Shown: piece by piece, positions 14,291 to 46,873 of the stretch
Numbering within the stretch: the first letter of the stretch is position 1
Layout: every line of letters begins with the position of its first letter
From: Candidatus Omnitrophota bacterium
GTDB taxonomy: Bacteria > Omnitrophota > Gorgyraeia > Gygaellales > Profunditerraquicolaceae
DNA: 64,000 nt
Reading direction: 5' to 3'
NCBI GenBank assembly: GCA_028716965.1
Contig: JAQUOV010000002.1
Coordinates: 2,113-66,112 of the forward strand
Position numbers and translations under genes: made by a program
Notes under the pieces: generated by a model
What the model was told of the DNA's origin: nothing
Seen by the model: the letters and a program-made list of their open reading frames with translations, nothing else
Database searches by the model: none

Positions 14291-14300
14291 AACTATTGGC

Positions 14301-15338: not shown

Positions 15339-15348
15339 AATTTAAAAT

Positions 15349-16347: not shown

Positions 16348-16357
16348 ACATATCTCC

Positions 16358-17401: not shown

Positions 17402-17423
17402 AACTTTTCCTTTATTTAAATTT

Positions 17424-19852: not shown

Positions 19853-19919
19853 TTACAATAATATTTTACACTATCTATACTGATATTGCCTTATAGTTCA
19901 GGTATAAAAAATAGGTTCT

Positions 19920-22103: not shown

Positions 22104-22107
22104 ATAG

Positions 22108-28125: not shown

Positions 28126-28130
28126 GCGCT

Positions 28131-29164: not shown

Positions 29165-29194
29165 TTGACCATTGGACGCATGGAGAGGTATAAT
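29165..29194 (+). promoter_or_regulatory. Candidate sigma70-type promoter: TTGACC, 18-nt spacer, TATAAT
   Basis: Perfect -35 (29165-29170) and -10 (29189-29194) consensus hexamers with an 18-nt spacer. It lies in the divergent intergenic region between wzm (minus) and the plus-strand block. It overlaps the TTG start the track proposes for the deacetylase ORF. Confidence 0.35.
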
Positions 29195-30239
29195 CTTTAT
29201 ATATCACGACACTCGGATCAGCGCAAATTTTCCAATCAGAAAAAGTAAAGGAGCATATCTTTTCCATATATTTAATATTTTAATGCCTCGGTCCTTAAAT
29301 CCCAATAATAGTAAAAAGACTGGTACTATACAGGTTGATACTGATGGCCTATGGGTCATCTTTCAGCATTTTTGCCTTACATATGATCAAGAGAAAGATA
29401 TACTCTATGAATCGGCGATTCCCCGCTTCCTGGATTTATTTGATTACTATAATATTAAAGCCACATTCTTCGTGGTAGGCAAAGACCTCCTTTACCCTGA
29501 AAGGCTTCTCTTACTCAGAGAGGTGGTTAAGAGAGGCCATGAGATCGCCAACCACTCTATGACACATGCAGAAGGATTTTCATTTCTGCCCTATAAGAAG
29601 AAATTACGTGAAATAGTAGATGCCGAAACTATAATACAGGATAAGCTTGGTGTATTAACCAAGGGGTTTCGCACCCCATCTAACGACGTAGATAGTGATG
29701 TGCTGAATATCCTGGAAGACAGGGGCTACGCATATGATTCCTCAATCATGCCGACCTATTACGGACCGCTACTTAAACGCCTGAAATTTTCTTTTTTGGA
29801 AATTAATCATAAAAACCGTTATTTGGGTAGATTTATATATGGCCTGGCCCCGCTTGCACCATATCATCCACACAAAGAAAGATTATGGAAAAAAGGATGC
29901 ATGGGAATTATTGAGCTCCCTATTACCACTATGCCATGGCTACGCCTGCCTTTTCACGCCAGCTTTACGTTCGCGGCATATCAAATGGGCTTCGGCAGCG
30001 CCCTATTTGACCTGGGATACACACTGCTAAAGAAAACCTCCTGCCCCTTAAATTTTGTATTTCATACAAATGAACTTTCCGACCCCATATCAAACCGGAG
30101 GATTAAACGGCAATATGGACTTAATATTGCTTTAAATAAAAAATATGCACTATGTAACCATATGTTAAGCGTCATCAACAAGGATTATAAAATAATCACT
30201 TCCCTTGAATACACAAATCTATTGCAAAATAGTAAATGA
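29172..30239 (+). CDS. Polysaccharide deacetylase (CE4/NodB-homology domain)
   Basis: ATFFVVGKDL is the TFDDG-equivalent block and NHSMTHA is the H-S-x-x-H motif. The track start is a TTG; the real start may be the ATG at 29283 (M38), given the promoter-like hexamers at 29165-29194. Confidence 0.55.
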   Translation: MDAWRGIIFIYHDTRISANFPIRKSKGAYLFHIFNILMPRSLNPNNSKKTGTIQVDTDGLWVIFQHFCLTYDQEKDILYESAIPRFLDLFDYYNIKATFFVVGKDLLYPERLLLLREVVKRGHEIANHSMTHAEGFSFLPYKKKLREIVDAETIIQDKLGVLTKGFRTPSNDVDSDVLNILEDRGYAYDSSIMPTYYGPLLKRLKFSFLEINHKNRYLGRFIYGLAPLAPYHPHKERLWKKGCMGIIELPITTMPWLRLPFHASFTFAAYQMGFGSALFDLGYTLLKKTSCPLNFVFHTNELSDPISNRRIKRQYGLNIALNKKYALCNHMLSVINKDYKIITSLEYTNLLQNSK

Positions 30240-30964
30240 CAAATACAATGCTACCAATGGAAAATAAACAGGTATCCCTCATGTTCTCCGGTGGGCTGGA
30301 TTCAACGGCAGCCGCACTTAACCTTGCTCAAGAATACCATAAGGTCCACCTTCTAACGTATTATAACGGTTATGGCCATTTGTATATCAAAAACAGCGCC
30401 CGGCGGGCAGAAGAATTATCCAAAATGGTAAAAGATAAATTTACGCACAACATCATATCTATTGAAGAGCTCTTTAAGAAAATGGTTATTGATAAGCTTA
30501 CAGAAGATTACAAGGAATATAAATCTGGGTTCATCTGGTGCCTGGGATGTAAAATGTGCATGCATACCAGAAGTATCATCTATAACTTGGATAACAATAT
30601 TGGTCTCATGGCTGACGGCTCATCAGAAGACTCCGACGAAATGGTCGAGCAAACGGCTCTTAGTATTTCCTTAATCGCGATGCTCTATGAGGCATACAAG
30701 ATAAGTTATTTTGTTCCGGTTTACAAACGAACCCGTAAAGAAAAAATAAAGACCCTAAAAGCAATGAATTTTCGTATGGGCCTGCAAATCGGTGACAGGT
30801 TTTTAGGGATACAACCAAAATGTATCCCCGGCGAACTATATTATATGCCGTATCTTTTATTCAATAAAGCCATGAAACACGAAAAACCCTCAGTGGCTAA
30901 ATTCATCAAAGATAAGCATGGATTGGCCGAACAATATATTAAGGAGCATCTTAAGAATGGATAG
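30236..30964 (+). CDS. PP-loop superfamily ATP pyrophosphatase (QueC/ExsB-like adenylating enzyme)
   Basis: An N-terminal SGGLDST PP-loop motif (LMFSGGLDSTAAALNL) and a Cys cluster WCLGCKMCMH. 4-bp overlap with the deacetylase gene. Confidence 0.5.
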   Translation: MTNTMLPMENKQVSLMFSGGLDSTAAALNLAQEYHKVHLLTYYNGYGHLYIKNSARRAEELSKMVKDKFTHNIISIEELFKKMVIDKLTEDYKEYKSGFIWCLGCKMCMHTRSIIYNLDNNIGLMADGSSEDSDEMVEQTALSISLIAMLYEAYKISYFVPVYKRTRKEKIKTLKAMNFRMGLQIGDRFLGIQPKCIPGELYYMPYLLFNKAMKHEKPSVAKFIKDKHGLAEQYIKEHLKNG

Positions 30965-31203
30965 GGGTTGCAACGGTAAGAATGCTTATAAACCGATATC
31001 AAAAACCAGGTATTACCTGGGGCTGACAATATTTTATCTTCTTCATCTTAATCTTAAACTGACCATGTTCCTAAGGCATTATTTTATCAAAAAATACCCG
31101 GAATACAAAATTCTTAAAGATTTTCATGATGCGTATTTTTCGCAAATGCTTCAAGAAATAAGAAAAGGCGAGGGAATACGTACCAACAATAGTCAGGCGA
31201 TCC

Positions 31204-32679
31204 ATGAAAACCAAACATAAATCATTAATTTTAGCTAGTTTTTTTATTTTCGTATTCCTAAACTATCTATCCAGATTCGAAGGACCGGCTAGCGGTTACT
31301 GGGATACTTATATTACCGCGCCCGCATTTTTTATCACCAACCACCACATAAATTTTGTCTCAAAAGACGGCCAAAACCTTTATAATTACATGTTACCCGG
31401 TAAAATCCCCCAGAATCTTGTCGCAAAAGACACTTACGGCGTAATCTCCAAAGACCAGCGCATCGGCACGGGCATTATGTTCGCCCCCTGGTTCCTTTTC
31501 TTTAAACTTTTTGGCTTTCGCTTATTATTTGCTTTCATTGGCCTACTAATCGCTGTATTCACCTACTTAACTCTCAGGTATCTTGGGCTTAGATCCCCAA
31601 TCTGCCTGTTCGGAGCTCTTGCCGCAACTTTAAACCCTTATATGCTTTCATTAAATAAACTGAACCCGAATGTTGCAGGAATGATGTTTATCTCCATTAT
31701 CATTTATTTAATCCTGTCAAAGAAAACCAGTTGGTTATTAATAGGATTAATTTACGGAATTTTCGGAGGGGTGCGTAATGAGGGTATTTTATTTATACCG
31801 GCAATAACCTATTTTTTATACATATCTTCCAACAGAAAGATCAGAGACGCCCTGTTATTTTTTTGTGGAGCATTTACCACTATAATTCCAATGCTCTACT
31901 GGAATTATTTCGCCTTTGGGAATATGTTTATGCATCCGACACAATTCAGTGGGCTTGAAGGATTCCGCCCCACATTCCAGCATAGATTTCTTTTCTGGAA
32001 ATTTAGTTTTAACGGAATGCTCAATTGGCCATTATATACTCAGATTGTGCGTACCCCTTATTTTGCTTTTCCCGTTTTTCTTCTTTTGCCCCTGATTTTG
32101 ATAAACTCTTTTGGCGTTATTCTTTCTGCGCTTGCGGTTAACGGAGCTGTCCGGTTTTTCAAAGAAAAACGCCGATTATTTATATTCTTAATGCTCTGGT
32201 TTTTGCCGATGTATATTCTGTTGTCAGCTATGGAAAACTGGAGCGAACTTAAAACTACCTTTTTATTGTTATGTATAAGCCCCATAATCATCTGCATTTC
32301 TTTCGGGCTTGAGGAATTGACAAAGAAGATTTCTTCTCCAAGATACATTATCCGTACCGCCTCTCTGGCGGCCATTATCTGGGGGGCTGTTCGTCTTTTA
32401 ATTTTTACGGATTTCCAGGCTGACCCCCGATGGTACTTGCGTTTCCCAAGGGTACTGCAAAAAGGAGAAATATCTTTTATCGGGGATGACTTGAGGACAA
32501 GGCCTGAGGACCCAAAAGAGATTTTAGCGCAAAAAAAAGCTCTTACCAGCGCGAAGATAATTCCACCAATACCATGGCAGAAAATCGATTTCTATTATTT
32601 AGCAAAGAAAGTAAGTTCTGAGCTTAACCAAGATAATTTAACTACTATAGATTTCTGGAGATATATTTATGAACATTAA
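31204..32679 (+). CDS. Polytopic integral membrane protein, possibly a GT-C-like glycosyltransferase or polymerase
   Basis: 491 aa with at least 10 hydrophobic helices. No diagnostic soluble-domain motif was recognised. Confidence 0.35.
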   Translation: MKTKHKSLILASFFIFVFLNYLSRFEGPASGYWDTYITAPAFFITNHHINFVSKDGQNLYNYMLPGKIPQNLVAKDTYGVISKDQRIGTGIMFAPWFLFFKLFGFRLLFAFIGLLIAVFTYLTLRYLGLRSPICLFGALAATLNPYMLSLNKLNPNVAGMMFISIIIYLILSKKTSWLLIGLIYGIFGGVRNEGILFIPAITYFLYISSNRKIRDALLFFCGAFTTIIPMLYWNYFAFGNMFMHPTQFSGLEGFRPTFQHRFLFWKFSFNGMLNWPLYTQIVRTPYFAFPVFLLLPLILINSFGVILSALAVNGAVRFFKEKRRLFIFLMLWFLPMYILLSAMENWSELKTTFLLLCISPIIICISFGLEELTKKISSPRYIIRTASLAAIIWGAVRLLIFTDFQADPRWYLRFPRVLQKGEISFIGDDLRTRPEDPKEILAQKKALTSAKIIPPIPWQKIDFYYLAKKVSSELNQDNLTTIDFWRYIYEH

Positions 32680-32685
32680 TAAAAG

Positions 32686-32952
32686 ATGAGCCACTTGCTA
32701 TATTTATTTTTCATCCTTATTTATATCTTTTTCTTTCCCGGATATATCCTGGCGCTTTTATTCTGTAAGAAGCTTGGCGTTCTGGAGTATTTAGCGCTGG
32801 GGCTGGGATTAAGCATCATCGTGATCCCTCTGGTATCGTTTAGCGTAGCCATATTACTAGGAACATTCGTTAAAGAAACCATTGTCTTTGGCATTGCTAC
32901 TGCGATTAATCTTACAGGCTTAATCAGGTTTTTATCGAAGAAATTTAAATAA
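32686..32952 (+). CDS. Small hydrophobic membrane protein (3 predicted TM helices)
   Basis: 88 aa, very hydrophobic. It lies between the membrane protein and the carbamoyltransferase on the same strand with 6-bp and 2-bp gaps. Confidence 0.3.
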   Translation: MSHLLYLFFILIYIFFFPGYILALLFCKKLGVLEYLALGLGLSIIVIPLVSFSVAILLGTFVKETIVFGIATAINLTGLIRFLSKKFK

Positions 32953-32954
32953 AT

Positions 32955-34616
32955 ATGCATATCCTTACTTTACATGAAGACACTAATGCTAATATAACCC
33001 TTTTTAAAGATACGCAGATACTCTTCTCGGTTGCTGAAGAGCGCTTAAGCCGCGTAAAATACAAAGGAGGATTTCCTGTAAAAAGCCTGAATATGGCACT
33101 TGATAAACACGGATTATCGCTTAAAGATATCAGGTTAATCATCTGCGGGAACAAATATCATTTCCTCCCCAGAATCCTTTGGGATAAGTTCCCTTCTTAT
33201 GAACATTCCTTTTTAGGCACCGCGCAGAAAATATCCGTATATTACCAGCACGCCTTGTTTAAAAATAAATTTTTACGAAAGAGCGTTGAAAGTTTCAATA
33301 AGTTCATGCTCAAAAATAAGCTCAATAAGCCTGTCGCTCTTACAGATCACCATACTGCCCATGCTTATTCCGCTTATCTGACATCAGGATTTGATAAAGC
33401 AGTAACGATCACTACCGATAATTTTGGAGATGGCCTCTCCTGCGCTGTTTTTACCTGCGAAAACGGCATCTGCCGCTTACTTTATGGCTCATCCGCGCTT
33501 TATTCGCCAGGGCAATTTTACGGGGAGATCGCTCAAACGCTAGGTTTCCATCCGCTGCTAGCAGGAAAAATGACCGGATTGGCTGGATACGGAGACCCGC
33601 AGGCTGCCTACGATTTAATGAAAGGCCTGTTTGCTTTAAGTAAAGATAAAAAAGACTTTAAGCTGCCTGCGCTTATCTGGAAATTCCCCGGCCAAGGAAT
33701 ATACCGTAAGCTGCGCAAATATAAAAAAGAGGATATTGCCGCCGCTGCCCAAAGATTGTTTGAAGAGGTCATGCTGGATTATGTTGTAGAAACTGTTAAA
33801 AATACAGGGGTCTCTTCTCTTGCCCTTGCCGGCGGAGTATTTGGTAACGTCAGGTTAAATCAGAAAATCTCAGAGCTAAAAGAAATAAAGGAAGTTTTTA
33901 TTCATCCCGGGATGAGCGATCAAGGGATAAGCTTAGGCGTAGGATTAAAATACCTGGCAGAAAATCTGGGATTAAAGCCGTTTAAACTTAAAGATGTATA
34001 CTGGGGTGCTGAATACAGTAGCGAAGAAATAAAAGAAGCCCTTAAAAAAGAACGGGTAAATTATGAATACGTTGAGAATATTGAAAGTGCGGCGGCTAAA
34101 CTTTTAAGTGCAGGTAAAACAGTAGCCAGGTTTAATGGTAGAATGGAATACGGCCCGCGGGCGCTGGGGAACAGAAGTATTCTTTATCAAACTACCGACC
34201 CAAAAGTAAATGACTGGCTAAACAAAAAATTAAACCGCGCGGAATTCATGCCTTTTGCTCCTGTGACTTTAGAAGAATACGCGGAAAAATGTTATAAAAA
34301 CACCGAAAAAGTAAAACACAACATGAAGTTCATGACTATTTCAATCTACTGCACTGAATGGATGAAGAGTATATCACCTGCAGTAGTGCATGTAGACGGA
34401 ACAGCCCGGCCGCAAATTATAAACGAAGATGATAACCAAAGTTATTATAATATTCTAAAGGAATACCACAGAATAACCGGAATACCCAGTCTTATTAATA
34501 CCAGCTTTAACATGCATGAAGAACCTATTGTTTCCAGCCCTGATGACGCCATCAGGGCATTTAGAGCCGCAAAACTGGATTATCTGGCAATAGGAAACTA
34601 TCTTATAAGCCAGTAA
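32955..34616 (+). CDS. NodU/CmcH-family carbamoyltransferase
   Basis: N-terminal Kae1-like fold with DHHTAHAYSAY. The C-terminal motif NGRMEYGPRALGNRSIL...AEFMPFAPV marks the Carbam_trans_C/YrdC-like domain. Confidence 0.8.
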   Translation: MHILTLHEDTNANITLFKDTQILFSVAEERLSRVKYKGGFPVKSLNMALDKHGLSLKDIRLIICGNKYHFLPRILWDKFPSYEHSFLGTAQKISVYYQHALFKNKFLRKSVESFNKFMLKNKLNKPVALTDHHTAHAYSAYLTSGFDKAVTITTDNFGDGLSCAVFTCENGICRLLYGSSALYSPGQFYGEIAQTLGFHPLLAGKMTGLAGYGDPQAAYDLMKGLFALSKDKKDFKLPALIWKFPGQGIYRKLRKYKKEDIAAAAQRLFEEVMLDYVVETVKNTGVSSLALAGGVFGNVRLNQKISELKEIKEVFIHPGMSDQGISLGVGLKYLAENLGLKPFKLKDVYWGAEYSSEEIKEALKKERVNYEYVENIESAAAKLLSAGKTVARFNGRMEYGPRALGNRSILYQTTDPKVNDWLNKKLNRAEFMPFAPVTLEEYAEKCYKNTEKVKHNMKFMTISIYCTEWMKSISPAVVHVDGTARPQIINEDDNQSYYNILKEYHRITGIPSLINTSFNMHEEPIVSSPDDAIRAFRAAKLDYLAIGNYLISQ

Positions 34617-34629
34617 TATCCCCTTGCCG

Positions 34630-36033
34630 TTATTTATCAATATTTGAGATAACCTTCAGTAATGATTTAAAACAGTTTAGATAATCCGGGTGGATTCTGG
34701 TTATAAAAAAATAAAATAATTCAGAGAGTTTAGAGATCCGGAAATAGAAGCGCTTAACGATATCCTTTCGTAAAACAGATAGCTCTTCGCTAGTAATATC
34801 GTCATTAAGGACAATTGGTTTTCTTAAGAACACATAGTCATCCCAATTATCCGAAAGAATACGATTGCTCTGGAGACAATCTTGATATAATGCAGAACCC
34901 GGCAAGGGAGTAGCAAAGGATAACTGCAAGATATGCGGATTAAAATCAAATATCTTTTCTTTAGTTTCCTCTATTGATGCTTTTGTATCCCCCGGGAAAC
35001 CGATAATTGCATACCCCATGGCAACTATCCCGTTGCGTTTGATACGCTGGATAGCTTCTTTTATCTGGGACTCAGTTATATCCTTCTGTAATAACGCCAG
35101 CTTCCTGTTGCTGCCACTTTCAATGCCAATCCCAATCTGTATACAGCCGGCGCGCTTCATAAGTGAAACCAACCGCTCATTTAACATATCTACCCTTGTA
35201 TTAGATGCCCAACGAATCCTTCTATGCAAACCTCTTTGTATTATGCCATCGCATATTTCTTCTACAAATTCACGTTTTACCGTAAAGGTATGGTCAATAA
35301 TTGCAAAATATTTTATTCCTAATTTCGTAACACATTCTTGTATCTCATCCACTACGCGCGAGGGGTTCCGTGCGCGGTACTGCCGGCCGTTAATCAGGTG
35401 GCTGTCACAGAATATACACTGACCTGGACATCCCCGTGTTGCCTGAAGAGCGGTTACCCCGGAAGAATATGGTGAAAAATATAAGCTGTTAGGTAATAAA
35501 TCTCTGGCGGGAAATGGCAAAGAATCTAATTCTTTTAAAAGATCCCTGGCTTCTGTATTAAATATCTGGCCTTTTAATCGGTAATAGATACCTTTTACTG
35601 AAGATAACTGTTTCTTTTCAGCAAATGATTTGATAATTTCAAACACCGTAATCTCAGGCTCTCCGAAAACTACGATATCAAGTCCGGGGATAAAACGGAG
35701 AGTTGCTTCCGGAAAGGCAGAACCATGATGGCCGATAAGGATTATAGTTATCTTTTTATCTTGCAAGGCTTCACAGAGATACTTCACCGCATTAATAGAA
35801 TGCGTGGCTGCGGTAAGAATAAGTACGTCCGCATCTAGATCTTTAATACGCTTAAGCTGCGTTTCTGAATTAAGCCGCAAGGCGTTGGCGTCAAGGATAA
35901 CAATACTCGCTTCCGGAATATGCGTTCTCACCACGGCTGCGCAATACGCAAGGTCCAATGGGGGGATTACCGTTATTAAAGAGGTATATTCTACCCTTTC
36001 CTGATAAAATGTATTAGAGAAGATTATCTTCAT
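34630..36033 (-). CDS. B12-binding radical SAM protein
   Basis: B12-binding-like N-terminus followed by CPGQCIFC at about residue 192. Confidence 0.7.
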   Translation of the reverse strand: MKIIFSNTFYQERVEYTSLITVIPPLDLAYCAAVVRTHIPEASIVILDANALRLNSETQLKRIKDLDADVLILTAATHSINAVKYLCEALQDKKITIILIGHHGSAFPEATLRFIPGLDIVVFGEPEITVFEIIKSFAEKKQLSSVKGIYYRLKGQIFNTEARDLLKELDSLPFPARDLLPNSLYFSPYSSGVTALQATRGCPGQCIFCDSHLINGRQYRARNPSRVVDEIQECVTKLGIKYFAIIDHTFTVKREFVEEICDGIIQRGLHRRIRWASNTRVDMLNERLVSLMKRAGCIQIGIGIESGSNRKLALLQKDITESQIKEAIQRIKRNGIVAMGYAIIGFPGDTKASIEETKEKIFDFNPHILQLSFATPLPGSALYQDCLQSNRILSDNWDDYVFLRKPIVLNDDITSEELSVLRKDIVKRFYFRISKLSELFYFFITRIHPDYLNCFKSLLKVISNIDK

Positions 36034-36036
36034 TTT

Positions 36037-37107
36037 TTATGCCAGACAGAGGGATGAAACCCAGCTTGGCGTAATCTCGCATCCCAGCCAACAGGCACCG
36101 CAATTTTTAACTTTACTGATTTTTTCTTTAGTTTTCTGCTTTTTTAATATTTCGCTATAGCTTTCCACTCTGATATTTCCAAGCGCTTCGGTATCATAAC
36201 TGCATGTCACTATATCGCCATTCGGATTAAGCCTAAAGTGGGAAAATAGATTCATACAGCGATGATACATCTTATTCTTATTATACAGCAGGTTGAGCTG
36301 CCCTCTTAGATAGTGGTTAATAGTGATCTTTTCTATCCAAGCGGAAGAATTGTTCCATTTGACTTTACCGGGATAATCCTCCTTTATAAGCTGCTCACTT
36401 ACAAACTCTTTTGCTTCTTGGCTTAAATCAACCAACGAGTAATCATTTCTTCCGTTATTTGAATAAAGCGCGCGCTGTTTTAAGCCCACAAAACCAAAAT
36501 ACGCGGCGTTAAAATCATGCGCTATTTTCTTAACCTCGGGAATACTTTGATAATTATCTTCATAGATAGTCTGGTTTACCCCTATAAAAATATCTTCTTT
36601 TTTAAAAACACTACGTAACTTCTGCAGCGTATCAACGGCTTTCCTAAAACTCCCCCCCCTACCTCTGAGTTTATCGTGTTTTTCGTCTATATCGTCTATA
36701 CTTACCTTGATATCAAAACGAAGCCCCTTGGATTTTAAGAACCTTAGCGTGTCTCTTATTCTATCCGTCAGAAAGCCGTTGGTCGTGATATGAAATAGCC
36801 GCGCGTTTGTTTTTTTCTTAAACTCAAGGAGGATCTGCTCGAAATCATCTTTCAGGAACGGCTCTCCTCCTGAGATTATAATGGCCTCAAGCTTACTTAA
36901 TTTCTTATCTTCCAGGAAACCCGATATTTCTAAAGAAGTCAACTCTTCTTTTGCATAGTTATCCTTAAGCCTGGAGACACCGCAATATTTACAATCGAGA
37001 TTACAGCGAAAGGTCAAGGAATAATTCACTAAAAACGGCGCAGATGGGATATTTAAGACTCTCCGCAAATTATCCAGAAGGAACCTTGCAGGATACTGTA
37101 TCATCAT
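36037..37107 (-). CDS. Radical SAM protein with a twitch/SPASM-like C-terminus
   Basis: CNLDCKYCG and the C-terminal Cys CGACWLGCEI. The start was moved to the ATG pair M17/M18 to remove a 52-bp overlap. Confidence 0.6.
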   Translation of the reverse strand: MMIQYPARFLLDNLRRVLNIPSAPFLVNYSLTFRCNLDCKYCGVSRLKDNYAKEELTSLEISGFLEDKKLSKLEAIIISGGEPFLKDDFEQILLEFKKKTNARLFHITTNGFLTDRIRDTLRFLKSKGLRFDIKVSIDDIDEKHDKLRGRGGSFRKAVDTLQKLRSVFKKEDIFIGVNQTIYEDNYQSIPEVKKIAHDFNAAYFGFVGLKQRALYSNNGRNDYSLVDLSQEAKEFVSEQLIKEDYPGKVKWNNSSAWIEKITINHYLRGQLNLLYNKNKMYHRCMNLFSHFRLNPNGDIVTCSYDTEALGNIRVESYSEILKKQKTKEKISKVKNCGACWLGCEITPSWVSSLCLA

Positions 37108-38480
37108 ATCAGCTTTCTCGCAAAAAAATACTTTAGCAACATCAAAAATCTCCACGGGCGGATATAAAACAAAAAGAACGCCAAAAGTCTATAGAGTTCA
37201 ATTTCAAAGTTGTTAAGATGATTATAGGCAACAATCCCGGAAATGCCGTGAAAATAATCCCTCCAATTCCTATTGTTATATTTCCCGAAATACGCCGTAC
37301 CTGGGTATGGAGTTAAGGAATAAAATACGGCAAAGTCAAGTTTTGAATGTATAGCTTTTATTATAGTTCTCCATATGGTCTTTCTGGTTTCCCCTTCAAG
37401 ACCAAAAATAAAATAACCGTATGTCAAAATCCCGTATTTTTTAAGAAGGTTAATCCCTTGCTCAATTTGCCCTTGCATCAAAAACTTATTATTTTTCCTT
37501 AAAATCTCTTCTTCAAAAGTCTCAATCCCCAAAGAAACAAGGATACAGCCTGAATTTTTCATTAAAGAAATACTTTCTTCATCAAGCAAATCCAGCCTGC
37601 TATTAGATACCCACTGAATATGCAGGCCGTTTGAAATAATACCGGAGGTTAGTTTCTTTACAAATTCCCTGTTTCCGTTAAATGTATCGGATAAAAACAG
37701 GAAATTATCAATACCCTGCGTAAGTTTAACCTGCTTTATCTCTTCGATTATATTTTCCGGAGATCGCCCTCTCCACCCTCTGCCGTAATAAACTCCAGAG
37801 GTACAAAAGGAACAAGAAGAATCACAGCCCCTGGAAGTTTTAATCACGGTGAACCTCTTGTTGGTCAATGATAACCTGTACTTTTCGTTATCTATAAGCG
37901 ACCGGTCAGGGAAAAAAGTATAATCATAATTTTCAAGCGGGAGCCTTCTTTTGTTAATATGCGACTGCCCATTAGACTTGTACCCTAACCCTGTTATCTG
38001 GGATAAATCAATACTATCATCTAAATGGTAGCCGACTAAATCACAGATAATATCCTCCGGCTCACCTAAGACTGCGTAATCTACCGCCTCGTTTTTTAAA
38101 AGCTCCTCAGGCATAGTTGTCGCGGACAAACCGATAAAGACGGTCTTTAAAGCCGGAAGCCTGATTTTAAGCGAAGAGGAAAAAATCAAATCATCAACGA
38201 TAGTCGGGACGGTAGACTGAAGAATAACCATATCCGGCGATTTCACGGTGATATGTTCAATAAGATCTCCAAATGATAACGCCTTTGTTTCCCCGTCAAT
38301 AACCTCAGTATTCAAAAATCCTCTTTTTCTTAATTTAGCCGCGATCTCAAGGAGAGTTATCGGCGGCCAAAGACCTACTGGGGATAAAACTTTCTGCTGA
38401 CAGCGCCCTACCCGTAAAACTCTGGTTTTATTAATAGTTAACGGGTTAACTAAAATCAATTTCATCGCACTTTGTTCCAT
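37104..38480 (-). CDS. B12-binding radical SAM protein
   Basis: CDSSCSFC at about residue 220 after a B12-binding-like domain. The likely real start is M6 (38465), which forms an ATGA overlap with the upstream carbamoyltransferase stop. Confidence 0.7.
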   Translation of the reverse strand: MEQSAMKLILVNPLTINKTRVLRVGRCQQKVLSPVGLWPPITLLEIAAKLRKRGFLNTEVIDGETKALSFGDLIEHITVKSPDMVILQSTVPTIVDDLIFSSSLKIRLPALKTVFIGLSATTMPEELLKNEAVDYAVLGEPEDIICDLVGYHLDDSIDLSQITGLGYKSNGQSHINKRRLPLENYDYTFFPDRSLIDNEKYRLSLTNKRFTVIKTSRGCDSSCSFCTSGVYYGRGWRGRSPENIIEEIKQVKLTQGIDNFLFLSDTFNGNREFVKKLTSGIISNGLHIQWVSNSRLDLLDEESISLMKNSGCILVSLGIETFEEEILRKNNKFLMQGQIEQGINLLKKYGILTYGYFIFGLEGETRKTIWRTIIKAIHSKLDFAVFYSLTPYPGTAYFGKYNNRNWRDYFHGISGIVAYNHLNNFEIELYRLLAFFLFYIRPWRFLMLLKYFFARKLI

Positions 38481-40102
38481 TTAAGCAGGAATCTTCCTAT
38501 CGCCAGATAATCCAACTGAGCTTCATAAAAAGTGGCGATCGCGTCTTCCGGAGAACAAACGATAGGTTCATTATGCATGTTAAAGCTGGTATTAAGAAGA
38601 CTTGGGATTCCGGTTATTTTATGGTATTCTTTTAAAATCTTATAACAACTAGGATTATCCTCTTCCCTTACAAGTTGGGGCCTGGCTGTGCCATCGATAT
38701 GGATGACTCCCGGTGAAATATTTTTCATCTCATCAGTACATTCTAAGGATACAGTCATAAATTTCGCTGTCACCTCTACTGCGCGGACATTTTTATAACA
38801 TCGATTCCTGAATTCAAAAAGCGTAACCGGAGCAAAGGGCATAAATTCAGCCCTTTCCAGTTTCATGTTTAACCAGTTATTCACCGTAGGATCGTCCGTA
38901 CGGTAAAGGATGCTTCTGTTGCCCAGGGACCTGGGACCAAATTCCATCCTGCCGTTAAACCTTGCCACCACCTTACCCTGAGCAAGTAAACTTGCTATCT
39001 TTTTCTCGATCCCCTCTTCTTCGGAATAAACAAGTCTTTTCGCATTAAGCAGCCCTCTGATATATTCATCAGAATATTCCGGACCAAGATAGACATTCTC
39101 TAATTTGTTTGCGACAAATGATAACCCCCCATCTCCCATATGGGGGAAAACAAATATCCGCTCAAACAACCCGGATTCGTTAAGCAACTGGGTTACTTTT
39201 ATGTTTGCAAAAAACCCTCCGGATAGAAAAAGATCGGGTTTATTGCTTTCTGACACAAAATTCCTAATGAATTTAATAACAGTCTCCTCGGTTGTAACCT
39301 GTAAAGCATACGCAACATCCTCCCTGGAATAACCTGTAATCTTTTTTAAAAAATGTTTTTTTCTATAAACATTATTTACCTTCAGATTCCCGGAATTAAC
39401 CCCGAGGACCGCAGCAAATATTTCACAAAGCCTGCTTTTCTTCCCGTAATCCGCTAAAGCCATAACTTTGCCTTCTTCGCCCTCTTTAAAGCCTAGAATC
39501 GCGCATATGCTGCCATAGAAATGAGCAAGGCTGTTTTTATGAGAGTACTGCCTTTCTTGTGTTATTTTGCCCTGTCTGGACTCAACTACCAATCCTGATT
39601 TTCCATCGCCATAGGCGTCTAATGATACGGCAAGAAAATAATCAGAGGACAGGCCGCTTCTGGCTGTCAGGATATGCTGCCGATGATGATCGCTAAACTC
39701 AATTAAACGGTAAGGTATGCGCATGGCTTTAAGCCTTCTCTTAATTACCCATGCGCTAAGCAGGCAATCAATATCCCTAACCCAGGGAGTATGGGCAATC
39801 AGGCTCTCTAGCCCACAGGCCATTCTTGAATAAATCGAAAGGATGTCTTTGCTGGCAGAGGTCCTGGAATACAGCCTATTGAAAATCCTAAAAATTGCCC
39901 TTCCGGATCTTCCCGCCACATACACTTTGTCTATCCGTCTGTCCTGGATAAAGCTTTGTGCATATCTGAGCGCCTCAAAAGGAAAACCTTGCTGCATTTT
40001 ATTACGCGTGAATCTTTCCTCTGAAACAGCAAGCAAAACTTTTTCGTCTTCTACCAATGTAACAGAAGCATCATGACTGTCAGTTATCCCTAACGTCAAC
40101 AT
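38462..40102 (-). CDS. NodU/CmcH-family carbamoyltransferase (paralog of 32955-34616)
   Basis: DHHRQH (H-H-x-x-H retained). The C-terminal NGRMEFGPRSLGNRSILYRTDDPTVNNWLNMKLERAEFMPFAPV is near-identical to the other copy. Confidence 0.75.
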   Translation of the reverse strand: MLTLGITDSHDASVTLVEDEKVLLAVSEERFTRNKMQQGFPFEALRYAQSFIQDRRIDKVYVAGRSGRAIFRIFNRLYSRTSASKDILSIYSRMACGLESLIAHTPWVRDIDCLLSAWVIKRRLKAMRIPYRLIEFSDHHRQHILTARSGLSSDYFLAVSLDAYGDGKSGLVVESRQGKITQERQYSHKNSLAHFYGSICAILGFKEGEEGKVMALADYGKKSRLCEIFAAVLGVNSGNLKVNNVYRKKHFLKKITGYSREDVAYALQVTTEETVIKFIRNFVSESNKPDLFLSGGFFANIKVTQLLNESGLFERIFVFPHMGDGGLSFVANKLENVYLGPEYSDEYIRGLLNAKRLVYSEEEGIEKKIASLLAQGKVVARFNGRMEFGPRSLGNRSILYRTDDPTVNNWLNMKLERAEFMPFAPVTLFEFRNRCYKNVRAVEVTAKFMTVSLECTDEMKNISPGVIHIDGTARPQLVREEDNPSCYKILKEYHKITGIPSLLNTSFNMHNEPIVCSPEDAIATFYEAQLDYLAIGRFLLKWNKVR

Positions 40103-40111
40103 TTTGCGTCC

Positions 40112-42328
40112 TTACAAATAGCTCTCCGGCTCATTATAAAAGAATGTCGTCTTAAATTCTCCACGGGATCCGCGTTTTATTAACCAGCTGTCCACCTTAA
40201 AAGGCACTCCATTCTCCTGGTTAATAAACCAGTTCTTTATGATGATTTTCATATCTTGGGGGATTTTAAATATCAAAGACTTGCCTTCTGCATACAAAGG
40301 GAATGTTTGCATCCCTGTTTTATAACCCTCTTGTCTTAAGGCGGGGTCCAGGCTAAAATTCATTGAATTGACCACGTCGCATCCTAAATCGTCTTTTCCT
40401 AAGCTGATGAAAGCATTCAAATCAATAGTCAATTCTTTAAAATTACCGATGGCCTTGTTTTTGAGTATGATACAAATTGGCAGAACATTCTCCTGCCATT
40501 TTGTATCAAATTGCGCGTAAAAAACATCAGCTAACTGCTCTTTACTGCTTAAATCAAGAGAAACCATATCTACGCTTCCAATGCGGGTAACGGCTGCATC
40601 CATACTCTTAGCTAATTTATCAAAATTAATTTTTACGTATACATAATCTTCGGGTTTCCCCGTAGAAGGAATAATGATTTTGCTTTCCTTATTAAAGAAA
40701 TCCCTTTCCCACTGGCTGTAAAATTTATTAAGCCTCTGCACATTGGGCAGAACCGATGGGGAAAACAGGTTGGCCGCTACAATGCCCTCTTCAACTCTCT
40801 TGCGCTTTATGTCAAGTTTCTGGAACAACCGCGCATAGTCCGGAAAAAACCCTGCATGCAATAAAAAATTTTTAGCAAGTTCGTAATATTCGTCCGTTTC
40901 TTTTTGATACAGGTATTTCCTTTGATAAAACCCATTATCCCTATTGAAGTGAACGGCTGAAATACAAAACAGGAAAATAACTGGTAGTGCCAAAGCAATA
41001 ATCAATACGAAGATATTCTTCCTATAAGCGAACAGATTGGATATAGTTTTTAACCCAAAGGCAAGGAATATATATACCGGCAAAAACCCCGAAATCATGA
41101 TCCTGTATTTATCCCCCTCAAGCCAGTTTCTCTGATACGCTAAGAGAAGAACTACCAGCAAAAATATTGCCGATAAAGAAACAAATAATCTCTTGTTTTC
41201 CTTATAGGCACAATACGCCCCGAAACAAATAATACCCGAAATGAGCAATCCGAAATAATTGACAATATTGACCAGATAAAATATTAAATTCGGGAAAGGC
41301 AAAAAAGGTGTTCTTGCCCATTCAGCAAAAGCAATATACAACAATCGCGAAGAAGAAGTATTTTCTCCGAGGCTATTCAATCCGTTAATGAAAAGATGAG
41401 GGACATTAAAAAGAAATGTGATAAAAAAAGCGAAGCTAAATAAGGCTGTTCTTTTTAGATCATTATCTTTACCCCATAAGATAAAAACGGGAACAATAAA
41501 CAGCAGCGGCAGGAATCTCAAACCTGTTCCTGCCAATATGCCAAAGATAATCCCTTGCAGGAACCTCTTTTCTTTATGCTCTAATAAAACGTAAAAAAGA
41601 ATAACCGAAATTGATAATGCCATAAAATTCCTATCCAAAACCTCAACTGACAACACATAAGGATTTAAAACAGAGAAGGCCGAAACAGCTAAAGACACTA
41701 ACCTGTTTTTTACAAGCCTTCTGCAAATAAGATATGAAAAAATCAAAAGCAAAGCATTAAAAACTAAATAAATAATTCTAAAACAGCCGATTTTTAGGAT
41801 AGGCAGGAAAGTTGAAGTAAACAAGATATTGCCGGGGGTGCAGATAATCTGATATACTTTAACAAGCGGGTCAAGCCTGCTGGAGCCGGGATTCAACAGG
41901 CTTATTGTCCGGAAGCTCTGCATATAAAAGCACGATGCTTCTCCTTTAGTCAGGTATGAAGATAAAGACAACAGCAACTCGATATTCGAGTAATAAAAAA
42001 ACAAAAATACCAAAATAGCTATAAAGAATACTAAAGCTAACAATTCATCCTTTAGCATTGGGGGAAAAAGTATTTTTTTAAGGTTATTTATGTTAAATTT
42101 TCTTGCCGAAACTAAAAGAATTAAGAATAATAAGCATGAGGCGGAACTTATAACCACGGCAGGATTAATATAAATCCCCATTAAAAGCGCAAGATTTATA
42201 TTGATGAAAGGTACAGCAGTAATGGCAAAGAATAATGTTAAACCAAGTCTTTCCAGAAAAGTTGAGTTTTGAAATAAATAAACCGAAATAAGAAAACCGG
42301 CAAGTACGGCTAATATTATAATTGGCAT
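40112..42328 (-). CDS. Large polytopic membrane protein with a C-terminal soluble domain (GT-C-like or oligosaccharyltransferase-like topology)
   Basis: 738 aa. The first 480 aa or so are very hydrophobic (more than 12 helices) and are followed by a soluble domain of about 250 aa. Confidence 0.35.
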   Translation of the reverse strand: MPIIILAVLAGFLISVYLFQNSTFLERLGLTLFFAITAVPFININLALLMGIYINPAVVISSASCLLFLILLVSARKFNINNLKKILFPPMLKDELLALVFFIAILVFLFFYYSNIELLLSLSSYLTKGEASCFYMQSFRTISLLNPGSSRLDPLVKVYQIICTPGNILFTSTFLPILKIGCFRIIYLVFNALLLIFSYLICRRLVKNRLVSLAVSAFSVLNPYVLSVEVLDRNFMALSISVILFYVLLEHKEKRFLQGIIFGILAGTGLRFLPLLFIVPVFILWGKDNDLKRTALFSFAFFITFLFNVPHLFINGLNSLGENTSSSRLLYIAFAEWARTPFLPFPNLIFYLVNIVNYFGLLISGIICFGAYCAYKENKRLFVSLSAIFLLVVLLLAYQRNWLEGDKYRIMISGFLPVYIFLAFGLKTISNLFAYRKNIFVLIIALALPVIFLFCISAVHFNRDNGFYQRKYLYQKETDEYYELAKNFLLHAGFFPDYARLFQKLDIKRKRVEEGIVAANLFSPSVLPNVQRLNKFYSQWERDFFNKESKIIIPSTGKPEDYVYVKINFDKLAKSMDAAVTRIGSVDMVSLDLSSKEQLADVFYAQFDTKWQENVLPICIILKNKAIGNFKELTIDLNAFISLGKDDLGCDVVNSMNFSLDPALRQEGYKTGMQTFPLYAEGKSLIFKIPQDMKIIIKNWFINQENGVPFKVDSWLIKRGSRGEFKTTFFYNEPESYL

Positions 42329-42509: not shown

Positions 42510-43262
42510 TCAAGATCCTGAACTTACTTTTAAGAGAGTAAATAGCCCCAATACTAAAATCAAGATCCCCACATATTTCTTTAACTTATCCAAATGAATA
42601 TTCTTTACAGTTACGGCTGCCAGGGGGACTGCGGGAATCGCGCTAATAAGCAATAAAGTTGTTAATTTCCAATCAATTGCCTTTCCCATAATGAGATAAG
42701 TTATAAACCCGACAAGACAAGTAACTGCTTCCGCAAAAGCTGTTATACCTACTGCATTCTTGGCAGTAACACCGGAAAGAATCTGCCCGCCCATAACTAA
42801 AGGTCCATATCCGCCGCCTACCATCCCCTTGTTAAAAGCCGCCAAGAAACTAACCCCCATTATCTTGCGCCATGAAAAAGAAATCTTTCTTTTACTATTA
42901 ACGAGGATTAAAAAGCCCATAACAGTTACCAGCAGTCCTACGTACATAGTCAATAACCATTTTGGGATTTTAATCGCTACGACAACAGAAACAAATACGC
43001 CTATGGAGCTTATTAATCCAAGGATGAGGGCTATTTTAAAGTCTTTGGCATTGATCTTTAAGTCTACGTTGCAGCAATTATGATGGAATATACACGCAGC
43101 GATATCTGTCACCAACTGGGAAACAAGGATAGCCGGCACAACTTTTAATGGGTGATATCCAAAAATAATCAGGATTGGAGCCAAAGCAGTCCCATACCCC
43201 ATACCAAGTCCGGAATCAAAATACTCGCTGATAAAAGCAATTACCCCAATTAAAAATAACAT
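42510..43262 (-). CDS. TauE/SafE (TSUP) family membrane transporter
   Basis: 250 aa with two internally repeated four-helix halves and Gly-rich helices (AFNKGMVGGGYGP), typical of DUF81/TauE. Confidence 0.55.
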   Translation of the reverse strand: MLFLIGVIAFISEYFDSGLGMGYGTALAPILIIFGYHPLKVVPAILVSQLVTDIAACIFHHNCCNVDLKINAKDFKIALILGLISSIGVFVSVVVAIKIPKWLLTMYVGLLVTVMGFLILVNSKRKISFSWRKIMGVSFLAAFNKGMVGGGYGPLVMGGQILSGVTAKNAVGITAFAEAVTCLVGFITYLIMGKAIDWKLTTLLLISAIPAVPLAAVTVKNIHLDKLKKYVGILILVLGLFTLLKVSSGS

Positions 43263-43277
43263 GGCTTGATTATTTTA

Positions 43278-46852: not shown

Positions 46853-46873
46853 ACTTTTTGTTTTAATTAAAAA

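What the first reader, a model, noticed from the sequence alone, without database searches (positions are those of the whole stretch)
32955..40102. Mirror-symmetric module: carbamoyltransferase, B12-rSAM, rSAM-twitch, B12-rSAM, carbamoyltransferase
Two paralogous NodU/CmcH carbamoyltransferases (32955-34616 on plus, 38462-40102 on minus) flank two paralogous B12-rSAMs (34630-36033, 37104-38480). A twitch/SPASM rSAM (36037-37107) lies between them.

The two outer genes converge. The inner three are co-oriented with the right-hand carbamoyltransferase. The arrangement looks like an inverted segmental duplication of a carbamoyltransferase plus B12-rSAM unit.

From established knowledge, NodU/TobZ-type enzymes O-carbamoylate sugars and class B rSAMs C-methylate unactivated carbons. 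This suggests two parallel routes, each installing a carbamoyl and a C-methyl group, possibly on different sugars.
Basis: partly seen in the sequence, partly recalled or inferred. Interest (0 to 1): 0.55.

Follow-up and report, generated by a model that had tools for sequence, protein, structure and literature searches.

The report
Conserved carbamoyl/radical-SAM sugar-tailoring cassette
The five genes are real, but they are not a recent mirror-image duplication: they are the centre of an old, conserved 11-gene cassette in uncultured bacteria and archaea that probably decorates a lipid-carried sugar and moves it to the cell surface.

Summary
All five ORFs exist at the stated coordinates, with the stated domains. 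The order CT–B12–SPASM–B12–CT is palindromic by family only, because four of the genes are on the minus strand.

An inverted segmental duplication is not supported:
- CT1/CT2 are 38.5% identical and B12a/B12b 30%. That is family background level, and each has closer relatives elsewhere.
- B12a is nearly as close to another B12-rSAM in the window (28%).
- Both copies of each pair have separate orthologues in distant genomes.

The real unit is larger, 29172–42328, in two convergent operons:
- CE4 deacetylase, PP-loop ATPase, GT-C transferase, 88-aa membrane protein, CT1.
- A GT-C paralogue with no Pfam match, CT2, B12b, SPASM-rSAM, B12a.

This order is kept in seven lineages. A smaller core (CT1-like, B12a-like rSAM, small membrane protein, PP-loop ATPase, often GT-C and GT2) recurs in other phyla.

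The likeliest function is cytoplasmic tailoring of a polyprenyl-phosphate-linked amino sugar, followed by GT-C transfer. Carbamoylation is well founded. C-methylation is not: B12a's best structural match is AprD4, a cobalamin-free sugar dehydratase. The cassette is a new variant of a known kind and of moderate interest.

The parts
29172..30239 (+). CE4 (NodB-type) polysaccharide deacetylase. It is cytoplasmic, and the true start is probably the ATG near 29283.
   Evidence: Pfam Polysacc_deac_1 at 70 bits. Orthologues are 58-80% identical in L001-L008. The DTDG and HEIANHSMTH motifs are present and there is no signal peptide or TM segment.
30236..30964 (+). PP-loop ATPase (DUF7411/QueC/MnmA-like) with an SGGxDS motif and conserved CxxC...C.
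   Evidence: Weak Pfam and NCBIfam hits. The motifs are conserved in 8 orthologues. It co-occurs with the B12a-type rSAM in L011, L012, L021-L023, L025 and L092.
30918..31220 (+). 100-aa ORF. It is the 'CCDGKNAYKP' N-terminal module that is fused to the GT-C gene in other genomes.
   Evidence: The same sequence forms the N-terminus of the GT-C gene in L006, L007 and L008, and is a separate 85-aa ORF in L003.
31204..32679 (+). GT-C fold membrane glycosyltransferase (PMT_2/ArnT-like), 491 aa.
   Evidence: Pfam PMT_2 is borderline. The AF2 model has pLDDT 90 and pTM 0.91. The top 24 Foldseek PDB hits are all GT-C fold proteins, including AglB, ArnT (TM 0.51), STT3, ALG3/9, PglB and the GPI-transamidase subunit PIG-U.
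32686..32952 (+). 88-aa membrane protein with three TM segments, always next to a carbamoyltransferase.
   Evidence: ORF. Homologues of 87-96 aa are present in L002, L003, L007, L011, L012, L013, L017, L022, L023 and L025.
32955..34616 (+). CT1, a class III (TobZ/NovN/GdmN-type) carbamoyltransferase. It is the most conserved gene of the cassette.
   Evidence: Pfam hits. Full-length PDB matches to NovN, TobZ and GdmN at about 190 bits. All 90 family-conserved residues are kept, including HHxxH, D155 and D322. Orthologues are 62-92% identical.
34630..36033 (-). B12a, an rSAM with an N-terminal B12-binding-type Rossmann domain. Its reaction is unknown.
   Evidence: Pfam hits. CxxxCxxC motif at C202. 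No NCBIfam cut-off is reached. The AF2 model has pLDDT 89.7, and the best folds are AprD4 (TM 0.78) followed by MgmA, TsrM, OxsB and CysS.
36037..37107 (-). rSAM with a reduced SPASM/twitch C-terminal domain.
   Evidence: Pfam Radical_SAM + SPASM. CxxxCxxC at C35. Five conserved C-terminal Cys: 284, 302, 336, 339, 343. The best curated-family hits, NirJ/AhbD-like, are far below cut-off.
37104..38480 (-). B12b, a second B12-domain rSAM and a distant paralogue of B12a (30% identity).
   Evidence: Pfam hits. CxxxCxxC at C219. Pairwise comparisons. Orthologues are 52-68% identical.
38462..40102 (-). CT2, a second class III carbamoyltransferase with a divergent acceptor (Kae1-like) domain.
   Evidence: Pfam hits. 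Orthologue series P0001-P0036 at 51-73% identity. All conserved residues are kept. Domain-wise identity to CT1.
40112..42328 (-). 738-aa membrane protein with no Pfam match. It has about 12-14 TM segments plus a roughly 270-aa C-terminal domain, and is a paralogue of the GT-C at 31204.
   Evidence: No Pfam or NCBIfam hit. Hydropathy. hhalign against the GT-C family gives probability 99.8%, E 3e-30. phmmer also hits GT-C family members. The family is small: 224 representatives among 1.84 billion.
34325..34596 (.). Left arm of a 272-nt, 74% inverted repeat; the right arm is 38494-38765. The arms are the conserved C-terminal domains of CT1 and CT2.
   Evidence: Found. It is explained by domain conservation that is equally strong in L003 and L007, not by recent duplication or gene conversion.

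Best explanation
**What it is (shown).** The five genes are the core of a conserved cassette of about 13 kb (29172-42328), built from two convergent, tightly packed operons:
- Plus strand: CE4 deacetylase, PP-loop ATPase, GT-C transferase (with a split N-terminal module), an 88-aa membrane protein, and carbamoyltransferase CT1.
- Minus strand: a second, highly divergent GT-C paralogue, carbamoyltransferase CT2, rSAM B12b, a SPASM/twitch rSAM, and rSAM B12a.

The three paired families are GT-C at 24% identity, CT at 38% and B12-type rSAM at 30%. They are ancient paralogues, not a recent inverted duplication.

**How it probably works (inferred).**
1. A hexosamine is carried on polyprenyl phosphate. 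The GT2 that loads it is encoded inside the cassette in related loci.
2. On the cytoplasmic face, the CE4 enzyme N-deacetylates the sugar.
3. The two carbamoyltransferases carbamoylate it at two different positions or on two different intermediates. Both would make carbamoyl-AMP the same way but have different acceptor domains.
4. The three radical SAM enzymes alter it further, by C-methylation, dehydration/deoxygenation or ring rearrangement. The PP-loop enzyme acts through an adenylated intermediate.
5. The product is flipped across the membrane.
6. The two GT-C enzymes transfer it to a surface polymer or lipid. In this window that polymer would be exported by the adjacent TagH/Wzt-type ABC transporter.
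For: **Shown**
- Gene content and domains.
- The full cassette is conserved in seven lineages, with all nine large genes 37-92% identical.
- A reduced core (CT1-like, B12a-like rSAM, small TM protein, PP-loop ATPase, with or without GT-C and GT2) occurs in Ca. Lernaellota (L011), L012, L017, L018, L020, L022, L023, L025 and L026.
- Starting instead from unrelated carbamoyltransferases gives the same neighbourhood in L092 and L093.
- The GT-C fold is supported by a high-confidence AF2 model whose top Foldseek hits are GT-C fold proteins.
- The 738-aa protein is homologous to that GT-C.
- Both carbamoyltransferases keep every family-conserved residue. These include the 2 His + 2 Asp iron site described for GdmN and TobZ (PMC9633730).
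- CE4 catalytic motifs are present and there is no signal peptide.

**Inferred**
- The lipid-carrier logic follows ArnC/ArnD/ArnE-F/ArnT (PMC4402001).
- GT2 genes next to B12-rSAM relatives best match AglJ, Dol-P-hexose transferase, PpgS and ArnC.
- The best fold match of B12a, AprD4, acts on an amino sugar.
Against: - No substrate, product or acceptor is known, and no member of the cassette has been studied. Two literature searches for this gene combination found nothing relevant.
- The window's cassette itself has no GT2. The nearest is 20 kb away, next to YfhO.
- Four B12a orthologues (L015, L016, L019, L024) have no carbamoyltransferase nearby. L022, L023 and L025 have no GT-C in the sequence held, and only L025 has long flanks on both sides.
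- None of the rSAMs reaches a curated family cut-off, so their chemistry is open.
- B12-rSAM plus SPASM-rSAM pairs are also typical of peptide (RiPP) maturation.
- MAG taxon labels are unreliable, so the breadth of distribution is approximate.
Confidence: 0.55

Rival explanations
1. An inverted segmental duplication of a carbamoyltransferase + B12-rSAM unit produced two parallel routes, each adding one carbamoyl and one C-methyl group.
For: The family order is palindromic, and both pairs are homologous. Within the window, B12b is nominally B12a's closest paralogue at 183 bits, against 167 bits for the next. A third pair, the GT-C paralogues, extends the two-fold pattern. An ancient duplication of a GT-C + CT + rSAM set therefore cannot be excluded.
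Against: - B12a is on the same strand as B12b, not inverted.
- CT1 and CT2 are not each other's nearest relatives. The nearest member of the other group ranks 17th and 35th, and the mean CT1-CT2 distance of 1.09 is about the same as the distance to outgroups, 1.05-1.10.
- The B12b group ranks 104th of 137 among B12a's neighbours.
- Both copies have separate orthologue series across phyla.
- The only DNA-level repeat is the conserved CT C-terminal domain.
- Pairings differ between lineages. In L011 and L012, B12a sits next to the CT2-like enzyme rather than the CT1-like one.
- Methylation is unproven.
Confidence: 0.12
2. The rSAM enzymes and carbamoyltransferases mature a ribosomal peptide (RiPP-like). 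The membrane proteins would serve export or immunity.
For: B12-rSAM C-methylases and SPASM-rSAMs are hallmark RiPP maturases. Several NCBIfam hits are to RiPP families such as ApyD, SkfB and WgkB, although all are far below cut-off. The window holds about 30 rSAM genes. Small ORFs of 88 and 100 aa lie inside the cassette.
Against: - The 88-aa ORF is a three-TM membrane protein. The 100-aa ORF is the N-terminus of the GT-C gene in other genomes.
- The cassette carries no protease, leader-binding domain or peptide-type exporter.
- Its constant partners are glycan enzymes: GT-C, CE4 and GT2.
- The adjacent ABC transporter is TagH/Wzt-type.
Confidence: 0.08
3. The cassette makes a soluble, aminoglycoside-like or aminocyclitol secondary metabolite. 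The model is tobramycin/apramycin chemistry, with a TobZ-type carbamoyltransferase and AprD4/GenK-type rSAMs.
For: The best solved relatives are TobZ, NovN and GdmN for the carbamoyltransferases and AprD4 for both B12-type rSAMs. DegT and class III aminotransferases lie elsewhere in the window.
Against: - Pfam found no 2-deoxy-scyllo-inosose synthase or soluble GT-A/GT-B glycosyltransferase in the cassette.
- Two GT-C membrane transferases are constant partners, and GT-C enzymes use lipid-linked donors.
- The cassette sits in surface-glycan contexts: Wzm/Wzt, Wzy_C, GT4, lptC/lptA/lptB.
Confidence: 0.1
4. The B12-type rSAMs are HpnJ/OxsB-like ring-rearranging enzymes or AprD4-like dehydratases, not methylases. 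The cassette would then make a deoxy- or carbocyclic (cyclitol-like) carbamoylated head group on a membrane lipid. This is a variant of the best explanation with different chemistry and a different acceptor.
For: The best curated-family hits are BchE and HpnJ (180-199 bits) and AprD4 (81-105 bits). The best fold match is AprD4 at TM 0.78. The hopanoid pathway HpnI/HpnK/HpnJ combines a glycosyltransferase, a deacetylase and a B12-rSAM; that description is from my own knowledge and was not checked here. L011 lies beside lptC/lptA/lptB. B12-rSAMs are known to catalyse non-methylation reactions, and AprD4 binds no cobalamin (PMC12931638).
Against: All of these hits are far below family cut-offs. 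Pfam found no hopanoid or isoprenoid-lipid genes in the window. Most characterised class B rSAMs are methylases.
Confidence: 0.15

Closest known systems
ArnC/ArnD/ArnE-F/ArnT-type lipid-carrier amino-sugar modification systems. From my own knowledge, unchecked here: LgmA/B/C, FlmF2/NaxD/FlmK and PpgS/Rv3779.
   Same: Both have a CE4-type deacylase and a GT-C fold transferase. Related loci carry a small GT2 of the polyprenyl-phosphate-sugar synthase type. Both have small membrane proteins in the operon and sit in a cell-envelope glycan context. Pathway logic as described in PMC4402001.
   Different: This cassette adds two class III carbamoyltransferases, three radical SAM enzymes and a PP-loop ATPase. 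It has two GT-C paralogues, one with no Pfam family. The window's cassette has no GT2, and the 88-aa protein is not an ArnE/F homologue. The sugar and the acceptor are unknown.
Class III carbamoyltransferases (TobZ, NovN, GdmN, NodU, CmcH).
   Same: The Kae1-like + YrdC-like architecture is the same. There are full-length matches to solved structures, and all conserved catalytic and metal-binding residues are present.
   Different: They are not orthologues of NodU: 111-136 bits against a cut-off of 1000. They act in a membrane-glycan context rather than an antibiotic or Nod-factor context. Two copies with strongly divergent acceptor domains sit in one cassette.
Class B (B12-domain) radical SAM enzymes: GenK, GenD1 and Fms7 (sugar C-methylases), MgmA/QCMT, OxsB, HpnJ, BchE, and the cobalamin-free AprD4.
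   Same: Both have an N-terminal Rossmann (B12-type) domain plus an rSAM barrel with CxxxCxxC. The fold matches AprD4 at TM 0.78 and MgmA, TsrM, OxsB, CysS and TokK at TM 0.63-0.72.
   Different: No curated family cut-off is reached. Cobalamin use and reaction type are unknown. The systematic linkage to a carbamoyltransferase, a PP-loop ATPase and a GT-C did not turn up in the two literature searches aimed at this gene combination.
Nod-factor tailoring set (NodB CE4 deacetylase, NodU carbamoyltransferase, NodI/J ABC-2 exporter).
   Same: The window combines the same families: a CE4 deacetylase, a NodU-family carbamoyltransferase and an ABC-2 exporter.
   Different: There is no NodA or NodC. 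The carrier is probably polyprenyl phosphate with GT-C transfer. Radical SAM enzymes are present. The ABC ATPase matches TagH/Wzt better than NodI.

Membership tests
Class III carbamoyltransferase (TobZ/NovN/GdmN/NodU type) | Two catalytic domains: N-terminal Kae1-like and C-terminal YrdC-like | tested here: met
   Carbam_trans_N and Carbam_trans_C are above Pfam cut-offs in both proteins. CT1 aligns full-length to NovN 9s2t and to GdmN.
Class III carbamoyltransferase (TobZ/NovN/GdmN/NodU type) | Iron site of two His and two Asp in the Kae1-like domain (GdmN H133, H137, D156, D333; PMC9633730) | tested here: met
   H132/H136, D155 and D322 in CT1, and H139/H143, D162 and D324 in CT2, lie in columns that are 100% conserved across 134 family members.
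Class III carbamoyltransferase (TobZ/NovN/GdmN/NodU type) | ATP- and carbamoyl-phosphate-dependent carbamoyl transfer to an acceptor | not testable with these tools
   Needs an enzyme assay.
NodU proper (NCBIfam NF041651 equivalog) | Score above the curated cut-off of 1000 bits | tested here: not met
   135.7 bits for CT1 and 111.2 bits for CT2, both partial matches.
Class B cobalamin-dependent rSAM C-methyltransferase | CxxxCxxC radical SAM cluster motif | tested here: met
   C202-C206-C209 in B12a and C219-C223-C226 in B12b, conserved in orthologues.
Class B cobalamin-dependent rSAM C-methyltransferase | N-terminal cobalamin-binding Rossmann domain | tested here: inconclusive
   Pfam B12-binding is above cut-off, at 47.4 and 34.6 bits against 32.1, and the fold is of the class B type. 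The best structural match, AprD4, has the same domain but binds no cobalamin (PMC12931638).
Class B cobalamin-dependent rSAM C-methyltransferase | Membership of a curated methylase family (PhpK, HpnR, KedN5, MJ_0865, TsrM and others) | tested here: not met
   All hits are far below cut-off. The best hits are BchE and HpnJ, which are not methylases.
SPASM/twitch radical SAM | C-terminal auxiliary Fe-S domain (7-Cys SPASM or reduced twitch) | tested here: inconclusive
   Pfam SPASM scores 30.4 bits against a cut-off of 21.5. Only five C-terminal Cys are conserved: 284, 302, 336, 339, 343. That is intermediate between twitch and full SPASM.
GT-C fold glycosyltransferase (ArnT/PMT/AglB type) | GT-C membrane fold | tested here: met
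   The AF2 model has pLDDT 90 and pTM 0.91. The 24 best Foldseek PDB hits are all GT-C fold proteins, with ArnT at TM 0.50-0.51. The 738-aa protein is homologous (hhalign 99.8%; phmmer).
GT-C fold glycosyltransferase (ArnT/PMT/AglB type) | Conserved acidic residue in the first extracytoplasmic loop | tested here: inconclusive
   An invariant Y32-W33-D34 follows the first TM helix in 53 sequences. Its position in the active site was not checked by superposition.
GT-C fold glycosyltransferase (ArnT/PMT/AglB type) | Polyprenyl-(pyro)phosphate-linked sugar donor | not testable with these tools
   Inferred from the fold only.
Arn-type lipid-carrier amino-sugar modification system | GT2 polyprenyl-phosphate sugar synthase encoded with the system | tested here: not met
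   There is no GT2 in 29172-42328. The nearest is 61714-62418, next to YfhO. A GT2 is present inside the related cassettes L011, L012, L017, L018 and L092, with best matches to AglJ, Dol-P-hexose transferase, PpgS and ArnC.
Arn-type lipid-carrier amino-sugar modification system | Deacylase acting before flipping (ArnD-like CE4) | tested here: met
   Polysacc_deac_1 at 70 bits with metal-binding motifs, and no signal peptide. Its substrate was not tested.
Recent inverted segmental duplication | The two copies are each other's nearest relatives, lie in inverted orientation, and show DNA-level similarity | tested here: not met
   B12a is not inverted. The pairs are at family background identity. 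The only repeat, 272 nt at 74%, is the conserved CT C-terminal domain, which is equally similar in other genomes.

The most novel reading that the evidence does not exclude
The cassette encodes a surface-glycan or glycolipid modification pathway that, as far as my searches show, has not been described. A polyprenyl-phosphate-linked amino sugar would be carbamoylated twice and remodelled by three radical SAM enzymes, by C-alkylation, deoxygenation or ring rearrangement. A new, rare GT-C family would then deliver it (224 representative clusters among 1.84 billion). The core module of carbamoyltransferase, B12-type rSAM, PP-loop ATPase and small membrane protein is shared by uncultured anaerobic bacteria of several phyla and probably by archaea.
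Probability: 0.35. Interest if true: 0.65.

Novelty: new variant of a known kind. Interest (0 to 1): 0.45.

Why it matters
If the model is right, it adds radical-SAM and carbamoyl tailoring steps to the familiar "build on a lipid carrier, flip, transfer by GT-C" route for decorating cell envelopes. It would also assign a first functional context to three things: a GT-C family with no Pfam entry, the PP-loop family DUF7411, and a clade of B12-type rSAMs. All of these occur in phyla known almost only from metagenomes, including Omnitrophota and Lernaellota.

It also gives a clean comparative handle, the recurrent link between a carbamoyltransferase and a B12-type rSAM, for choosing enzymes to characterise.

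For the scan itself, the lesson is that a palindromic order of gene families is not evidence of an inverted duplication.

Tried and rejected
- **Exact look-up of CT1.** It is not on record. The window's origin came instead from 100% matches of B12a (P0121) and the GT-C (P0241) to a 237-kb Candidatus Omnitrophica MAG contig.
- **Gene conversion between CT1 and CT2.** I considered this as the cause of the 272-nt inverted repeat and rejected it. The same C-terminal similarity (61-74% aa) exists in L003 and L007, and third-position identity is not clearly higher in the window.
- **Biopython neighbour-joining with bootstrap.** It timed out and was replaced by a numpy implementation. My predefined CT1 and CT2 sets were not exact clades, because I had left P0037, P0038, L011_CTa and L012_CTb outside them. 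The bootstrap counts are therefore uninformative. I rely on distance ranks and means instead.
- **Profile searches of both GT-C families against PDB sequences.** They found nothing. Fold comparison was needed.
- **Literature searches for the gene combination.** Nothing relevant turned up.
- **Promoter and terminator scans.** Counts did not exceed shuffled controls.
- **NCBIfam on the tandem rSAM-SPASM genes.** Only sub-threshold generic hits were returned.
- **Anaerobic sulfatase maturase.** I considered this role for the SPASM gene because of the sulfatase at 43278. There was no support: the SPASM gene travels with the cassette even where no sulfatase is adjacent (L006, L007), and it had no anSME family hit.

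Full report
**1.

Pfam confirms the domains, all above gathering scores:
- Carbam_trans_N + Carbam_trans_C in 32955-34616 (+) and 38462-40102 (-).
- B12-binding + Radical_SAM in 34630-36033 (-) and 37104-38480 (-).
- Radical_SAM + SPASM in 36037-37107/37155 (-).

Four of the five genes lie on the minus strand and are packed tightly, with gaps or overlaps of 3 to 19 nt. Only CT1 is on the plus strand. Its stop codon lies 13 nt from that of B12a. The palindrome is therefore one of family names, not of strands.

Both carbamoyltransferases look catalytically intact. They keep all 90 columns that are at least 93% conserved across 134 family members. These include the two-His/two-Asp iron site described for GdmN and TobZ (PMC9633730). 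All three rSAMs carry CxxxCxxC.

**2. It is not an inverted segmental duplication**

- An inverted copy of a CT+B12 unit would place B12a on the plus strand. It is on the minus strand.
- CT1 and CT2 are 38.5% identical (377 bits). The database holds many non-orthologous carbamoyltransferases closer to each of them: 46-48% and about 480 bits for CT1, 43% and about 440 bits for CT2.
- In a 134-sequence distance analysis, the mean CT1-CT2 distance (1.09) matches the distance of either group to outgroups (1.05-1.10). The nearest member of the other group ranks only 17th and 35th.
- B12a and B12b are 30% identical. B12a is 28% identical to the B12-rSAM at 19920-22103 (183 against 167 bits).
- About forty non-orthologous database proteins are closer to B12a than the B12b group is, which ranks 104th of 137.
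- The only DNA-level repeat is a 272-nt, 74% inverted repeat (34325-34596 / 38494-38765). It is the C-terminal YrdC-like domain of the two enzymes. That domain is 61-74% identical between CT1 and CT2 in every genome examined, whereas the N-terminal acceptor-binding domain is only 10-31% identical. This reflects domain conservation, not a recent event.

**3. What is really there is a larger, conserved cassette**

B12a and the GT-C match at 100% identity to a 237-kb contig of a Candidatus Omnitrophica MAG.

Relatives of CT2 at 51-73% identity all sit in the same neighbourhood:
- One operon: a 740-aa protein with no Pfam match, then CT2, B12b, SPASM and B12a.
- Converging on it: CT1, preceded by an 88-aa protein, a GT-C, a PP-loop ATPase and a CE4 deacetylase.

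Seven distinct lineages share this order, while the flanks differ: sulfatases, GT4, TPR, Wzy_C or cellulase. In the window the unit spans 29172-42328.

The 491-aa membrane protein is a GT-C fold enzyme. Its AF2 model has pLDDT 90 and pTM 0.91. The 24 best PDB matches are all GT-C fold proteins: AglB, ArnT, STT3, ALG3/9, PglB, Pmt1/2, PimE, Emb and AftB, plus PIG-U.

The 738-aa protein without a Pfam match is a paralogue of it (hhalign probability 99.8%, E 3e-30; confirmed by phmmer). It belongs to a small family of 224 representative clusters among 1.84 billion.

The cassette therefore holds three ancient paralogue pairs (GT-C, CT, B12-type rSAM) plus single genes.

**4. The link between carbamoyltransferase and B12-type rSAM is real and deep**

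A scan of one genome per species with a B12a profile returned 79 loci. My HMM mapping of cassette genes gave the following picture:
- Of 20 non-redundant loci with a B12a-type gene, 15 have a carbamoyltransferase within 2 kb. It is usually CT1-like.
- The small membrane protein, the PP-loop ATPase, a GT-C and a GT2 are often present too.
- A minimal unit of PP-loop ATPase, rSAM, small TM protein and carbamoyltransferase stands among housekeeping genes in a Myxococcales MAG (L025).
- Ca. Alcyoniella australis (phylum Ca. Lernaellota) and a 606-kb contig carry two carbamoyltransferases and two B12-type rSAMs, but paired differently.

I also started from the other side. The nearest non-orthologous relatives of CT1 (P0044, P0047) again sit next to a 466-467-aa B12-type rSAM. 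In one case they are convergent exactly as CT1 and B12a are, and they lie with a GT2, PMT_2 GT-Cs, a SPASM-rSAM and a PP-loop homologue.

The widespread core is CT1 + B12a. CT2 + B12b + SPASM + the 738-aa GT-C form a narrower addition.

**5. Likely mechanism (inferred)**

- All characterised GT-C enzymes, to my knowledge, use polyprenyl-(pyro)phosphate-linked donors.
- The CE4 enzyme has no signal peptide and has intact NodB motifs.
- GT2 genes next to relatives of these rSAMs best match AglJ, Dol-P-hexose transferase, PpgS and ArnC.

This parallels the ArnC/ArnD/ArnE-F/ArnT logic, in which a sugar is built on undecaprenyl phosphate, deacylated, flipped and transferred (PMC4402001).

I therefore propose that the cassette tailors a lipid-linked amino sugar on the cytoplasmic face. 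The steps would be deacetylation, two carbamoylations on different positions or intermediates, radical SAM chemistry and a PP-loop (adenylation) step. The two GT-C enzymes would then transfer the product. In this window a TagH/Wzt-type ABC exporter lies next door.

**6. What the rSAMs do is open**

- No curated family cut-off is reached. The best hits are BchE, HpnJ and AprD4.
- The AF2 model of B12a (pLDDT 89.7) matches AprD4 best, at TM 0.78. AprD4 is a diol dehydratase acting on the amino sugar of paromamine. Next come MgmA, TsrM, OxsB, CysS and TokK.

The expected +14 Da may therefore not exist. Carbamoylation (+43 Da) is the safer prediction.

**7. Novelty and limits**

Two searches aimed at this gene combination found no relevant paper. 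All the enzyme families are known, and the overall logic resembles known lipid-carrier modification systems. I therefore rate it a new variant of a known kind.

The limits are these:
- Every functional statement beyond domains and fold is inference.
- MAG taxon labels are unreliable.
- The trees are distance-based.
- The window's cassette lacks its own GT2.

Noticed in passing
window 5758-18455 (-): An array of 11 tandem rSAM-SPASM paralogues of about 325-363 aa, each 37-50% identical to its nearest neighbour paralogue. A B12-rSAM at 6808-8238 interrupts the array. None reaches an NCBIfam cut-off. Together with the rSAM genes at 367-5739 and 18623-25299, the window holds about 30 rSAM genes in 64 kb.
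   Followed up: partly
window 25303-28913 (-): A TagH/Wzt-like ABC ATPase of 940 aa with a C-terminal extension of about 700 aa that has no Pfam match, plus an ABC-2 permease. This suggests ABC-transporter-dependent export of a glycopolymer, directly upstream of the cassette.
   Followed up: partly
window 29172-34616 (+): This is the only plus-strand block in an otherwise all-minus window, and GC skew rises from about -0.2 to about 0 there. The same convergent arrangement is kept in all related loci.
   Followed up: partly
window 30918-31220 (+); L006-L008 GT-C genes: The 100-aa ORF with a Cys-rich 'CCDGKNAYKP' start is a separate ORF here and in L003. It is fused to the N-terminus of the GT-C gene in L006, L007 and L008. 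It could be a split gene or a detachable subunit.
   Followed up: partly
L006 14148-15557 and L008 14159-15574: The 'B12a' slot of the cassette is filled by a different rSAM subfamily. It is 35-38% identical to the window's B12a, and the two are 61% identical to each other. The other eight genes are orthologous. The same subfamily forms the minimal unit in L022, L023 and L025.
   Followed up: partly
L027, L032, L042, L063, L067, L069, L071, L083, L088: Many distant (about 30% identical) relatives of these B12-type rSAMs, from several phyla, have a GT2 of about 225-245 aa directly upstream. Those tested (L042, L063, L067) best match AglJ, PgfS, ArnC, Dol-P-hexose transferase or PpgS. The GT2-rSAM pairing may be general.
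   Followed up: partly
window 51130-52605, 61714-64000: The window holds further GT-C-type genes: a PMT_2 gene, and a GT2 + YfhO pair of the CsbB/YfhO type. That makes at least four GT-C-class membrane transferases in the window.
   Followed up: no
window 30236-30964 (+): The PP-loop protein keeps SGGxDS plus a conserved CxxC...C. This resembles Zn- or Fe-S-binding PP-loop enzymes such as QueC and TtuA/TtcA. Its substrate is unknown.
   Followed up: no
window 42510-47761 (-): A TauE-family membrane protein (sulfite exporter family), an arylsulfatase-type enzyme, a SAM methyltransferase, another B12-rSAM and an EamA transporter follow the cassette, both here and in L001/L002. They are absent in L003, L006 and L007, so they look like a lineage-specific add-on.
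   Followed up: no
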